A stretch of 62,912 nt of DNA, the filler included, from Collodictyon triciliatum (taxonomy: Eukaryota), in assembly GCA_043381765.1 (NCBI GenBank). It is 8 parts of 8 records of this genome, joined end to end, with 100 filler letters (N's around TTAATTAATTAA, not from the genome) between each part and the next. Parts side by side here need not be neighbours in the genome. Positions count along the whole stretch, not along the records: positions 1 to 8,138 come from JBHJMP010003037.1; positions 8,239 to 17,625 come from JBHJMP010003039.1; positions 17,726 to 27,104 come from JBHJMP010003040.1; positions 27,205 to 36,583 come from JBHJMP010003041.1; positions 36,684 to 46,065 come from JBHJMP010003042.1; positions 46,166 to 55,538 come from JBHJMP010003043.1; positions 55,639 to 60,911 come from JBHJMP010003050.1; positions 61,012 to 62,912 come from JBHJMP010003149.1. The stretch is one strand, 5' to 3'. A program made the position numbers and the translations under genes. Below the pieces are notes generated by a model that had not been told where the DNA came from, did not search any database, and saw nothing but the letters and a program-made list of their open reading frames with translations. Below, in pieces: positions 129 to 62,802 of the stretch; within the stretch, counting starts at the first letter, position 1, and each line of letters opens with the position of its first letter.

Positions 129-2400
129 TTATGGAGTAAGAATTGGTATGAATGAAGAGGTGGAGTAAGGATGCCTATTTGTTTTGTCTCCCAAGCTGAA
201 AACCGTCGTTATCAGATAGGCAGAATGCGGAGTGGAGCATGGAAGCACTGCATGCTAGGGTTTACTTGACTAGTTATATTTTTTTTTATCTAAGTGAGTA
301 AATTGGACAGTGTACTAAATAAATAAAAATACACCGATTGCCTCAGTTTGATATAATATAATGAATCCACCATCTTTCAGAAATTGAATTGAAGAATATT
401 TTTTTTAAAAAAAATATAGAAATTAGGAACATTCCAAACCTATGAAAGAGTGAATGATTTCGTTTTCGATCCTAAAGATACTCCACTGACAACGTCTAGT
501 ATGAAGTATAGTTAATATTAGCACTATCCAAGGGGAAAGAAGCGCTCAGTTCTGCATCAAATAAACCAACCAGTAAATAAATGCGTCTAATTCCATCTCA
601 TAGTATATACATGACAACTCACCGAAACAGCTCCAGAGCAGCAAGAAGAAACACAAACATTTCGTGCTTGAATCCAACCAGCGAAAATGCCGCGGGAGTG
701 ATAGTCAATGTTTTCGCAAAGCGTAGGAGAAGATTGCTGATGATGGCATACCAGTAAACCTACGATAATCTTTATTTTTGAATGGCATCTATGAAATCAT
801 GTATTGAGGAGCTCTCATATTTGATGTGATTAAGACATGATATTGTTGATGACATACCCAGTGGCTTTTAAAAATTCGATTTTCTCGAATAAATTTCTTC
901 GAGTTCAAATCAATCATTCTCCAATCGACAAGAATGTCCCAGATGAAAGCGTAGAGAGTGCTCCCGAAAAAGAGAATCAACCAAATGATGTATGGTGTAG
1001 ACCATGCGAGATGAGGAGAGACTGGGAACAGAGTATATGTAATAAATGAAACATGAATACAACGCCATGATAGAATGAATGCTAAAAAAAAAAAAAACAA
1101 TCAAGGTAGTTATTCATGCCTGAGCGATGTCATTGTTAGGTGGTTCAAAAAATACAGAAAAGGTAAGAATTAATAAACCTACCAAAGTCTCCATAGAGAC
1201 GTCCGTATATGACTGCTAAGATAGAGCAGAAATACTTCCCAGCATTGGCAATATGAGGAAATAGTAGCCCGGAGTAATAATACCCGCGAATGCATTGCAT
1301 AAAACGAAGATAGAGGGGTAGCGCTGCTAGGATGGTAAGGATTACTCCGTTTCTGTCGTATTCTATTGAGTTAAAAATTAGATAGAGAAAAGAAAAAATT
1401 GGATATTGTATGGCACCATGATAGGGCCGGGCGGTGGGCAATTTCCTTTTCACTTTTTTCTTTTGCTCCTTTATATTTTCACATATTCTGATGGCTATTG
1501 TAATATGTCCACCTCGAGACCTTTGTATGGCATAACCTCGCTACACTTTGAATCGAATAAAGGAAAAAAAAATGTCCACCTCGAGATGCACGTAGTATAA
1601 AATATTACCACTTGAATACCAAATACACATCACAATAAGGTGGTTGCAGTCGAAAAGCAAACGTGGCATGCTAGTAATGAAGTCTGCCACGAAATTTTCG
1701 GCAAAGGAAGTTCTTCCAAAAGGTGCCATAATAATCTGGACTATTGTTCTGGCGAGATATGACCTCAAATCTGAAGGCCACAGCATCGCGACTAGCATAG
1801 TCATGGTGATAAAAAATAGAAAGTCGTACGAATGGGTCAAAAACAGCTGATTGTTGGAAATCATGGCACCGGAATATGTAACGACGCAAAAGATCCAAGC
1901 AACGCTCAAAATATTGGACAACTAAAATGCATGGCATAAATTATCTTGTGAGTGTCAATGCGTTACAGAGTGATTGAGCAAAGATTAAACAAGCTGGGAA
2001 CCTGAATCTATGCATAGAGGATTTTTATGTGGCATTCTCATACCTGGATTATCTCCCCAAGGAAGTTCTCTTTGTTTGAGTGGATGGCCACGCCCAGCAG
2101 TTCCTCATATGGCACTTGGTAAATGTGAAAAATGCTAATCACAATGGACCAAAACCAGAAGAGTAGGATCGGCAACAGAAACGCGCGAAAGACCGGAATC
2201 ACAGCGAGGACAAGGCTGATATTCGGCGTTGAGTTCGTCCCGGGTAGGAAGATGAGGACAAAATAGCTGTATAGCGCAAGTACTATGTAAATGGCCGGGA
2301 AGGAGAAGCACCAAGGCGGAATCCAGTGCACTAGAAAGCGAATGTCGAATTGTTGAAGCCAACGACGGCGGCGATGTCCGTGGCTTGTGTATGAACCCAT
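129..2400 (-). CDS. EXS (ERD1/XPR1/SYG1) family membrane protein, multi-exon
   Basis: Spliced exons give EXS motifs FAENFVADFITSM, LPLYLRFMQCIR, PHIANAGKY, STLYAFIWDILVDW, ISNLLLRF, LELFRRCQWSIFRIENE. ATG at 2400; the last two exons and stop at 129 are inferred from phase-compatible GT-AG sites. Confidence 0.88.
1520..1571 (+). mobile_element. Family A retroposed insert (52 bp) in an EXS intron
   Basis: CCTTTGTATGGCATAACCTCGCTACACTTTGAATCGAATAAAGG(A)8 between perfect 15-bp direct repeats ATGTCCACCTCGAGA (1505-1519, 1572-1586). Confidence 0.88.
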
Positions 2401-2835
2401 CTAGTGTGGTTGATAACTTTGCTACTTAAGTCACAGGAAATATGTATCTGAGCTATCAGGCTGCATATTGCTGGTCTTGTGAAGATATGGGAGCGGGTGT
2501 GGTCATTAATTGAACAACTCAGCGATAGGATGTTTTAGGAATTACACTTGTATATAGCCCACACATAGTGATATGGTGATGTAAGTTATATAACACAAGG
2601 AGATAGAAAACTCTGCAGGAATAAACTCTTTCTCCGCTCAATCTCCTTTAATTTCTTTTTCTTTCCTTTAAAAGGGCTAGGAGGGAACTATGGTACAAAA
2701 TGCGACTTCTTCATATACCACGCGGGTGACTAACTCATAGGTTTGCCACAAAACGAGACTGTGCAAGATTAAAGCGTGAGATTCCAGCACTAAGTCAGGG
2801 CAGGCAGGAAAGCTCACCGATTGTGTGTCCATGCG

Positions 2836-3026
2836 TTTGTTGTTGTTTGTTGTTGTTGTTTGTTGTTTGTTGTTGTTGTTTGTTGTTTGTTGTTTGTTGT
2901 TTGTTGTTTGTTGTTTGTTGTTTGTTGTTTGTTGTTTGTTGTTTGATGTTTGTTGTTTGTTGTTTGTTGTTTGTTGTTTGTTGTTTGTTGTTTGATGTTT
3001 GTTGTTTGTTGTTTGTTGTTTGTTGT

Positions 3027-3118
<92 letters not shown>

Positions 3119-3184
3119 TATGTTTAAGAGGGCGCGTATATGTATGTGTATGTGTGAGTATATGTATGTGTATGTGTGTGTGTG
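2836..3184. repeat. Compound microsatellite (TTGTTGT)n/(TTTC)n/(TG,TA)n
   Basis: Simple repeats seen directly; source of spurious ORFs at 2795-3339. Confidence 0.92.
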
Positions 3185-61012: not shown

Positions 61013-61168
61013 GCCGAGTTCTACAAGACTCGTGTGCCATGGGCCGTCCAAGCTGCCCGTGCTGCTGCTTACCTGCCTGGTGTCTACTACGAAAAGCACT
61101 TCGAGAAGCCCGTGGACGAACTCCGCAAGGAGCTTAATATTGGCATATGCCCTTTCCCTAGGTCCTAA
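61013..61168 (+). CDS. COQ4: Ubiquinone biosynthesis protein COQ4, last exon (missing from ORF track)
   Basis: AEFYKTRVPWAVQAARAAAYLPGVYYEKHFEKPVDELRKELNIGICPFPRS* matches the COQ4 C-terminus (PWA...VY[WY]E...ELR.EL.I). Confidence 0.8.
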   Translation, partial: AEFYKTRVPWAVQAARAAAYLPGVYYEKHFEKPVDELRKELNIGICPFPRS

Positions 61169-61518
61169 ATCAGTGAAGGGTTGGCTGTGGAGCGGAAGGG
61201 GAAACAGGATTTGCAGCGCGCTCGGATACTCTCCTCCTCCACTCCCCTGACTACATGTGTAACATCCTTCATTCTTTCAAGAGCCGGGGCTCCGCCCAAC
61301 ACATCGGGGAAAATAAATGGATAAACGAATCAGGCTGGGGAGTTTCGTATGCCGCGACGGTGTCTCGTTCACAGGGCCTCGTATTGACTCATTTTGAGAG
61401 AAACTTTGTTTATCTGCCGTGAATTAAACAATAGATGGGATGGGTGCTGGCAGACAGGGGCTGGTGTCAAAAGGATAAGAGGAGGCGCTTTCTGTGGGTG
61501 CGTCTGTCTACTTTCAAC

Positions 61519-61850
61519 TTATTCCCCAGACTTACGCGACATGTTCCGCTCGTAAGCCTTTGCAATATGCTCGCGCGACACAGCTTTCTTTTGCACTGAA
61601 GCGCTTTGTGCAACGTAGTCGTAGGATGGAGCTGACGAGTAAGAAGAGGTGGTATAAGCTTCTTCATCAGCAACGGCAAAAGTGTGGGCAGCCCCAAGGG
61701 AAGGAGCTGGAGCGGGCGATGCCGACGAGGACGATGCTATATTTTGGCAAATGTCTCACTTTAATCTGACAGGCAGAATGCTTTCGAGAGATCGGTAGTG
61801 ACATTGTGCATGAAAAGACTAAAAAAAAAAAATTAATCACATTTATGAAA

Positions 61851-61917
<67 letters not shown>

Positions 61918-62802
61918 ATAGTCCTACAGAAGAGGCGGGAGATAAAGCTGCCGCGACGTGGGGCAGCTGCTTTAGGTGCAGACTCGCTTGCCTTGGATAG
62001 CATGACTGGCGCACGAGTATAGATAGGCGATGCCTTTGACGGAGCTCGGTCAGCGAGCTTGGATTTGGCTGACTTGAGATTTTCAGATGCCGTGATACAG
62101 TCGTAATTCGCAGAGGAGCTGTGCATGAGACGACGTATTTCGTTTGTTGATTGGTATTTAGCGTGGAGGAAAAAAAAAGCTTTCATAAATAAATCAATTC
62201 TATCTTCTTATGATATATCTGTCGCTTTAAGGATTGGTTTACACTGGTATGGTACGAAAAGGGGAATAAAACAAAAGTTTAGCGTACATTTGCATGTCAA
62301 CTTCGACTTCATCAACTTCTCGCTTCGCAGCCGACAATTTGGCAGTTACGCGGTCGATTACTTCCTCGTTGCTCATGGATGGATTAGCAGCTGTGTTTGG
62401 AGTATTTAGTGAGCATAAGTTTACATATATATTCTTTTAATATTTTTTCCATTATTCGATTCAAAGTATATATTCATTTAATATATCTTCCTTGAAGTTT
62501 TTTTTTCCCTTTATTTATTTCAAAGATATCTTCCTTGAAGTTAATTTGATGTAAGGAATAAGTGAAAGAGTACCTTGCATCTGAACTCGCTCCTGCTCAA
62601 CTTCTGCTGCCAATCTCTCCATGGCGAACTCCTCTTCGGCCCCACCAACAATGACTTTTGGGAGCAAGTGTGCATTACCAAGGTTGATGAACTTACCGCT
62701 GGTAATCTCGGCAATTCCTTTGAAGAAGTCACGAGCATATTTGTAGCCACTTAATGCTGGCTCGCAAGCCACGCTATATATTACAATTCCACTCTCCTTC
62801 AT
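61519..62802 (-). CDS. vWA-domain protein, 3' exons
   Basis: GIVIYSVACEPALSGYKYARDFFKGIAEITSGKFINLGNAHLLPKVIVGGAEEE, typical of stand-alone vwkA-like vWA proteins; three further phase-compatible exons end ...MSRKSGE*. Confidence 0.75.
62444..62525 (-). mobile_element. Two back-to-back family A minimal inserts in a vWA-gene intron
   Basis: 62444-62466 flanked by TATATATTC(T/A)TTTAATAT; 62500-62525 flanked by perfect ATATCTTCCTTGAAGTT (62483-62499, 62526-62542). Confidence 0.85.

What the first reader, a model, noticed from the sequence alone, without database searches (positions are those of the whole stretch)
1505..62542. Abundant unannotated micro-retroposon family A ending CTTTGAATCGAATAAAGG(A)n
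Seen: about 14 copies on 5 of the 8 unlinked scaffolds (1520, 28262, 31781, 32641, 33179, 33215, 34074, 34516, 35786, 43479, 47639, 51491, 62444, 62500), in both orientations, only in introns or intergenic DNA. They share the 3' end (AATAAA, G2-5, A-tail), vary at the 5' end (23-123 bp), and most carry 15-19 bp direct repeats. One target reads TT|AAAA (32620-32625). Established: poly(A) tail + variable-length TSD + 5' truncation is the signature of target-primed reverse transcription by non-LTR retrotransposons, and TT|AAAA is the L1-type endonuclease preference. Inference: roughly one copy per 4-5 kb implies a high-copy family too short for usual repeat finders; no RT gene is in the window.
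Basis: partly seen in the sequence, partly recalled or inferred. Interest (0 to 1): 0.8.

Follow-up and report, generated by a model that had tools for sequence, protein, structure and literature searches.

The report
Uniform 17-base stubs of a LINE
The tiny A-tailed insertions are real but are not a separate element: they are the last bases of an L1-type jumping gene of a single-celled eukaryote, and more than half of the sampled copies stop within a four-base window about 17 bases from its end, which is an unusually sharp form of an otherwise ordinary copying failure.

Summary
Confirmed: 14 motif hits against 0.15 expected. The genome holds 2,515 exact 14-mers, equally on both strands. Flanking duplications score in 61 of 100 copies against 0 of 400 mismatched pairs. 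Walking 5' from the longer copies reaches a LINE ORF2 with APE endonuclease, RT and zf-RVT, closest to human L1 ORF2p among solved structures. So the 'micro-retroposon' is the 3' tip of an L1-type LINE; the host is probably a collodictyonid. What is unusual: 55 of 101 sampled copies keep only 16-19 nt, and shorter ones are rare. The stop point follows the sequence rather than total insert length, and junction microhomology is at chance level. A tRNA-like SINE shares just these terminal 15-17 nt; one window copy is that SINE. A second tailed family truncates heavily but without a peak. Best reading: reverse transcription ends at the edge of a short ORF2p-bound 3' element; whether the RNA is clipped first or RT aborts is open. 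The scan found the LINE-stub reading before on other DNA of this genome. Density is overstated about fourfold.

The parts
1520..1571 (+). LINE A 3' fragment, 43 nt plus G/A tail; perfect 15-bp duplication at 1505-1519 and 1572-1586
28262..28298 (-). LINE A 3' fragment, about 31 nt, decayed, no duplication found
31778..31860 (-). 5'-truncated copy (70 nt) of the tRNA-like SINE B, which shares only the terminal 15-17 nt with LINE A; 14-bp duplication at 31861-31874 and 31764-31777
32641..32746 (+). LINE A 3' fragment, 103 nt; 19-bp duplication at 32622-32640 and 32747-32765; target TT|AAAA
33179..33199 (-). Decayed stub beside the 33215 copy; no duplication of its own
33215..33245 (-). Decayed LINE A fragment of about 23 nt; weak duplication (score 8)
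34074..34196 (-). LINE A 3' fragment of about 115 nt (end of ORF2 plus 3' UTR); decayed 12-of-15 duplication at 34197-34211 and 34059-34073; the query that led to the parent LINE
34516..34538 (+). Stub, 14 nt plus tail; perfect 17-bp duplication at 34499-34515 and 34539-34555
35787..35804 (+). Exact 17-nt stub core without A-tail or duplication; by eye antisense near the 3' end of an intron
43479..43504 (-). Canonical stub, 17 nt plus G and A-tail; perfect 17-bp duplication at 43505-43521 and 43462-43478
47639..47664 (-). Stub of about 17 nt; duplication with a small indel
51491..51516 (-). Stub of about 16 nt in low-complexity CA-rich DNA; imperfect duplication
62444..62466 (-). Stub, 17 nt; 18-bp duplication with 1 mismatch at 62467-62484 and 62426-62443
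62500..62525 (-). Stub, 17 nt; perfect 17-bp duplication at 62526-62542 and 62483-62499; abuts the previous insertion

Best explanation
Shown: the insertions are the 3' tip of an L1-type LINE ('LINE A': a long upstream frame, then ORF2 with APE endonuclease, RT and CCHC zinc knuckle, then a 3' UTR of under 100 nt ending in the motif and an A-tail). They sit at T|A-rich nicks with 15-19 bp duplications, the signature of target-primed reverse transcription. Shown: cDNA length is not spread out; over half of the sampled copies end 16-19 nt from the tail, a smaller group at 26-36 nt, and copies that pass about 36 nt run on for up to kilobases. Inferred: ORF2p nicks AT-rich DNA, primes on the A-tail, and synthesis most often ends at the 5' edge of a short 3'-terminal cis-element, the same 15-17 nt that a SINE shares with the LINE. 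My preferred last step (about 0.5) is that the RNA is trimmed or cut back to this protein-protected end before insertion, so RT runs off a 26-nt template and joins the target as a full-length insert would. The alternative (about 0.35) is abortive initiation on an intact RNA. The stubs have no promoter and are dead on arrival.
For: Parent: single copy L065 carries RT, zf-RVT and the motif 76 nt after the ORF2 stop; single copy L111 carries APE, RT and the C-terminal part in order on one strand; Pfam PF03372 E 3e-15, PF00078 E 3e-26 and PF13966 E 2e-7; human L1 ORF2p E 4e-32 against R2 E 3e-19. Duplications: 61 of 100 against 0 of 400 mismatched pairs; length 15-19 bp in 56 of 63; T at -1 in 44 of 63 and A at +1 in 57 of 63. 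Peak: 55 of the first 101 14-mer hits at 16-19 nt, stop rate 0.20 per nt there against 0.03 at 13-15, 0.05 at 20-25 and 0.003 at 37-70; genome counts 2,515 / 1,830 / 507 for 14-, 18- and 24-mers, so about 32% of copies that reach 18 reach 24 after correction for decay; 2,029 hits of a 9-nt core plus tail against about 1,820 expected from 14-mer copies, so few stop at 9-12. Stop point tracks sequence: body sd 1.9 nt, body plus tail sd 3.4, no significant anti-correlation (rho -0.17, p 0.24, n 48). Stubs read LINE-type in 47 and SINE-type in 1 of 73. Junction microhomology 0/1/2+ nt in 21/9/6 of 36 against null 0.56/0.28/0.16; 15 of 51 have extra bases. PMC2912911 reports chance-level microhomology for full-length L1 and nearly 80% for truncated L1.
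Against: The microhomology contrast is weak inside this genome: longer truncated copies (4 of 14 with 2+ nt) differ neither from the null (p 0.19) nor from stubs (p 0.44), so chance-level junctions may be general here and do not favour clipping over abortive RT. The 17-mer forms no stable hairpin (0 kcal/mol) and no 3' end folds better than shuffles, so a structural boundary is not shown. No protein binding, RNA end or empty allele was observed. No intact ORF2 was seen (longest open frames 423-425 aa) and the LINE's 5' end was not reached. 38 of 101 sampled copies have no duplication scoring 10 or more. The sample is the first 101 hits in contig order, exact matches only.
Confidence: 0.82

Rival explanations
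1. Abortive initiation: ORF2p primes on intact LINE RNA but disengages once it has copied the short element that anchors it (about 26 nt with the tail) and the cDNA is joined to the second nick; enzymes that pass about 36 nt become processive. Same identity, different last step.
For: Two-phase stop rate, high up to 36 nt and low beyond; the unrelated-tailed family C is also mostly short (12-95 nt, 17 of 25 at 33 nt or less), so early failure is general in this genome.
Against: Family C has no sharp peak; full-size duplications and chance-level microhomology resemble finished inserts in human data, though this is weak.
Confidence: 0.35
2. The stub is an independent micro-SINE with its own source gene or small RNA, mobilised in trans.
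For: Sharp 5' end; junctions like those of full-length elements; stubs outnumber longer copies about 3 to 1.
Against: 17 nt cannot hold Pol III boxes; lengths run on continuously into ORF2; 18- and 19-nt stubs carry the next LINE bases, and the stubs match the LINE variant rather than the SINE variant.
Confidence: 0.08
3. The peak is an ascertainment or assembly effect: long copies break a fragmented assembly and the search word cuts off shorter ones.
For: 14,576 contigs; several long copies end at contig edges; samples need an exact motif.
Against: Copies of 20-70 nt assemble as easily as 17-nt ones yet are scarce; lengths 13-15 were detectable and are rarer than 16-19; the 9-nt core adds only about 10%.
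Confidence: 0.05
4. A host polyadenylation element (AATAAA) or simple repeat, not an insertion.
For: Contains AATAAA followed by As; one copy lies in sense about 350 bp past the WD40 frame.
Against: Copy-specific 15-19 bp duplications; continuity with ORF2; balanced strands.
Confidence: 0.01

Closest known systems
5'-truncated copies of L1-clade LINEs (human LINE-1 as reference)
   Same: APE-RT-zinc-knuckle ORF2, A-tail directly after AATAAA, T|A target preference, duplications near 15-17 bp, most copies truncated (PMC2912911 passages).
   Different: Over half of sampled copies stop in one 4-nt window 16-19 nt from the end; microhomology in 15 of 36 junctions against nearly 80% for truncated human L1. 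That human L1 truncation is spread over hundreds to thousands of bases is recalled, not from a call.
Stringent LINE/SINE pairs with a shared 3' tail (eel UnaL2, Chlamydomonas L1-1_CR / SINEX-3_CR; PMC3747384 passages)
   Same: A tRNA-like SINE of about 280 nt ends in the LINE's terminal sequence plus A-tail and is inserted with duplications.
   Different: The shared tail is only 15-17 nt (about 80 nt in the Chlamydomonas pair) and has no stable predicted stem-loop; it coincides with the stub boundary.
Tx1-group LINEs
   Same: RT relatives include proteins named TX1-like.
   Different: No target-sequence specificity: all duplications differ.

Membership tests
L1-clade LINE (parent element) | N-terminal APE endonuclease in ORF2 | tested here: met
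   PF03372 E 3.4e-15 on L145
L1-clade LINE (parent element) | Non-LTR RT closer to L1 than to R2 | tested here: met
   PF00078; L1 ORF2p E 4e-32 against R2 E 3e-19; named relatives are LINE-1-like and TX1-like
L1-clade LINE (parent element) | C-terminal CCHC zinc knuckle | tested here: met
   PF13966 E 1.6e-7
L1-clade LINE (parent element) | ORF1 upstream of ORF2 | tested here: inconclusive
   About 2.4 kb of shared upstream sequence with broken frames; three fragments gave no relevant Pfam hit
L1-clade LINE (parent element) | Poly(A) 3' end, variable duplications, T|AAAA-like target | tested here: met
L1-clade LINE (parent element) | Placement by RT tree among reference clades | not tested
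   No labelled reference panel was built; placement rests on domain order and best matches
L1-clade LINE (parent element) | An intact autonomous copy | tested here: inconclusive
   None among the fetched loci (longest frames 423-425 aa); the assembly is fragmented
Tx1 group | Sequence-specific insertion | tested here: not met
   All 63 scored duplications are different sequences
SINE (for the stub itself) | Internal Pol III promoter / RNA-gene-derived head | tested here: not met
   Body is 13-19 nt of LINE 3' UTR; no Rfam match other than one tRNA gene in the window
tRNA-derived SINE (family B) | tRNA-like head with A and B boxes | tested here: inconclusive
   Box-like motifs read by eye against recalled consensus in aligned copies; ARAGORN calls no tRNA in 10 loci
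tRNA-derived SINE (family B) | Defined 5' end, LINE-shared tail, duplications, no ORF | tested here: met
   12 of 20 loci start within about 20 nt of one point; duplications score 8 or more in 4 of 11 copies tested
Stringent-type 3' recognition | Conserved 3' stem-loop required for retrotransposition | tested here: inconclusive
   No stable fold; requirement not testable here

The most novel reading that the evidence does not exclude
The cell makes a discrete small RNA of about 26 nt (the LINE's terminal 17 nt plus A-tail), by decay stalling at bound ORF2p or by a host cut, and this clipped RNA is the main substrate of the LINE machinery: a minimal, stringent retrotransposition template that yields thousands of harmless stubs. 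The same 17-nt module is sufficient for mobilisation in trans and was captured whole to found the SINE.
Probability: 0.3. Interest if true: 0.7.

Novelty: new variant of a known kind. Interest (0 to 1): 0.45.

Why it matters
Why LINE copies are 5'-truncated is an open question, because break points are usually scattered. Here roughly three thousand natural events (about 70% of an estimated 4,300 copies) end near one base, and that base is also the limit of LINE-SINE homology. That makes two models, template clipping and abortive initiation, directly testable by one RNA-end experiment, and it points to a cis-element of only 17 nt for an L1-type ORF2p in a deep-branching eukaryote (bearing on whether early L1s were stringent). 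Practically, such stubs are invisible to repeat finders and could serve as presence/absence markers. The underlying process is known.

Tried and rejected
Hairpin as the cause of the stop: the 17-mer has no stable fold and five longer 3' ends fold no better than shuffles. Rfam: only a tRNA gene. Family B first looked like one 2.8-kb retroelement; it resolved into a Fanzor1-bearing DNA element plus a SINE, since 13 of 13 other copies reaching that point lack the SINE. A first duplication control on random A-tracts had 9% background from simple repeats and other tailed families and was replaced by mismatched pairing. Longer copies seemed to have more microhomology with a loose measure; with one exact measure the difference vanished. 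Pfam and NCBIfam did not name the Fanzor fragments; solved structures did. Sequencing runs: no RNA holder listed, three DNA runs with small shares only; no reads were laid, so empty alleles and expression are untested. The LINE's 5' end and the parent of family C were not reached. Literature: six searches listed no paper on a fixed ultra-short LINE truncation point or on collodictyonid repeats; the library lacks most subscription papers, and Repbase/Dfam could not be searched.
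Full report
Observation. The window is eight scaffolds joined by N spacers. Nine have a duplication scoring 11 or more, one a decayed repeat, one a weak one and three none. In the own genome (75.4 Mb, 14,576 contigs) the exact 18-mer occurs 930 times forward and 900 reverse, the reversed control never; the 14-mer occurs 2,515 times. Since 33 of 57 long copies keep the exact 14-mer, the family has about 4,300 copies, one per about 17 kb, so this window is about four times richer than average. 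Across 100 copies, 61 have a duplication scoring 10 or more, against 0 of 400 mismatched upstream/downstream pairs. Of 63 scored duplications 56 are 15-19 bp (mode 17); the base before is T in 44 and the first base A in 57.

Host. A poly(A)-binding-protein fragment of the window is 79% identical to a protein of Diphylleia rotans (EukProt); the other 119 listed relatives are at 47-61%. The host is therefore probably a collodictyonid (CRuMs). This rests on one gene.

Parent element. Searching the genome with the window's 34065-34200 copy and walking upstream in four steps leads without a break from the motif into ORF2. Copy L065 holds RT, the zinc knuckle and the motif 76 nt after the ORF2 stop; copy L111 holds APE, RT and the C-terminal part in order. 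Pfam gives PF03372, PF00078 and PF13966 above their cut-offs. Among solved structures the RT fragment matches human L1 ORF2p (E 4e-32) far better than R2 (E 3e-19); named database relatives are LINE-1-like and TX1-like at 27-35% identity. About 2.4 kb more is shared upstream, so the element is at least about 6.4 kb; its 5' end was not reached, and copies are about 85-95% alike and broken. None of ORF2 is in the window.

The unusual part. I took the first 100 listed 14-mer hits in contig order plus one more on the same stretches (101). Homology to the LINE end is 13-15 nt in 9, 16-19 nt in 55, 20-25 in 9, 26-36 in 17, 37-70 in 1 and longer in 10, a stop rate of 0.20 per base in the peak and 0.003 at 37-70. 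Homology length includes chance extension of about a base; lengths measured from the duplications peak at 16-18. Genome counts agree: 2,515, 1,830 and 507 for the 14-, 18- and 24-mer, which after correction from long copies (30 of 33, 26 of 30) means about 80% reach 18 and about 32% of those reach 24. The peak is not the edge of the search: a 9-nt core plus tail occurs 2,029 times against about 1,820 expected from 14-mer copies (73 of 101 have that tail), and decay explains most of the gap. Body length varies less (sd 1.9) than body plus tail (sd 3.4), with no significant anti-correlation, so the stop is tied to sequence. Of 73 stubs 47 show the LINE variant at -17 to -13 and 1 the SINE variant; the rest are too short or decayed to tell. 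At 36 clean stub junctions microhomology of 0, 1 and 2+ nt occurs 21, 9 and 6 times, as chance predicts; 15 of 51 have extra bases. PMC2912911 (passages and part 3 of 5 read) reports chance-level microhomology for full-length L1 and nearly 80% for truncated L1. Against over-reading this: 14 longer truncated copies here do not differ from the stubs (p 0.44) or from the null (p 0.19).

A SINE shares exactly this tail. The window copy at 31781 matches a second family of about 280 nt with a common 5' start, box-like motifs read by eye, and duplications in 4 of 11 copies tested (ARAGORN calls no tRNA). It shares with LINE A only the last 15 nt exactly, 17 with one mismatch, which is the stub boundary. 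Its exact 26-mer occurs 42 times. Shared tails mark stringent LINE/SINE pairs (PMC3747384, passages), usually with a stem-loop; here none is stable. A third tailed family (C, three copies in the window) is young, with identical copies, and also heavily truncated, 12-95 nt in 25 off-anchor copies, but with no sharp peak. Early truncation is thus general in this genome, and the 17-nt peak is specific to LINE A's end.

Mechanism. Shown: nick at T|A, priming on the A-tail, short cDNA, duplication of 15-19 bp. Inferred: a 15-17 nt terminal cis-element defines where synthesis ends. I favour a template already cut back to the protected end (about 0.5), because the stop follows the sequence, coincides with the SINE-shared tail, and the junctions look like finished inserts. 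Abortive initiation on intact RNA (about 0.35) predicts nearly the same DNA and fits the second cluster at 26-36 nt and the short family C. DNA alone cannot separate them. An independent micro-SINE (0.08), an artefact (0.05) and a host poly(A) element (0.01) are unlikely.

Comparison and novelty. The parent meets the L1-clade features tested (no tree was built; ORF1 inconclusive) and fails Tx1 target specificity; the stub fails SINE membership. It works like, and is, a truncated LINE copy, so the kind is known; the sharp, ultra-short stop is the variant. Six literature searches (listings only) showed no paper describing it, within a library lacking most subscription papers; no supplements were read. 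Eight earlier notes of this scan on other DNA of the genome describe the same family, seven with the LINE-tip reading (read after my analysis); a word search for the SINE and Fanzor link found none. They are not independent support. Interest 0.45.

Noticed in passing
L112:5544-8334 (+), L113-L117, L169-L218 (own genome, outside the window): A high-copy, decayed DNA element of over 2.8 kb with a Fanzor1 frame (best solved match Parasitella Fanzor1, E 2e-12). Its right end is a GAAA-loop hairpin about 11 nt before CTAG, shared by 30 loci with different flanks, as in Helitron 3' ends; PMC3627910 (passages) describes Fanzor1 in one-ended non-autonomous Helitrons. No RepHel was looked for; the true left end was not found.
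   Followed up: partly
L112-L117, L095: Six Fanzor-element copies carry the SINE at the same site; four end right after its A-tail and two resume about 500 bp further on, while 13 of 13 other copies lack it. L095 shows the SINE followed by the normal continuation. One old insertion spread by one-ended transposition, or a target hot spot: unresolved.
   Followed up: partly
window 34242-34304 (-), about 39703-39792 (-), about 27781-27841 (-): Family C, a second A-tailed retro-insertion with 14-16 bp duplications at two of the three sites; many copies identical, 1,177 first-look candidates. Its tail shares three short words with LINE A's tail. Parent not found.
   Followed up: partly
L247 (G000:C2380) and L157/L158: A second LINE subfamily about 77-79% identical to LINE A in the endonuclease region; possible parent of family C, not tested.
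   Followed up: no
L124, L128, L139, L140, L141, L143, L127, L120: Several LINE A copies skip from the end of RT to the zinc-knuckle region at apparently the same point, and two skip at other points (translations): a possible internally deleted subfamily or spliced RNA.
   Followed up: no
window 62426-62542 and 33173-33256; L001, L041, L047, L052: Tandem or nested insertions into the duplication or tail of an earlier copy, as expected if the A-rich ends are good targets.
   Followed up: no
window 56360-60967 (+): A 1,535-aa intronless frame with SQ repeats and, by eye and recall, cohesin- and dockerin-like segments; not scanned against families.
   Followed up: no
window 28635-31127 (-); 9523-11819 (-); 27651-27722 (-): WD40 protein with a long SRSK/SQSK repeat; a poly(A)-binding protein gene; a tRNA-Glu(CTC) gene.
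   Followed up: no
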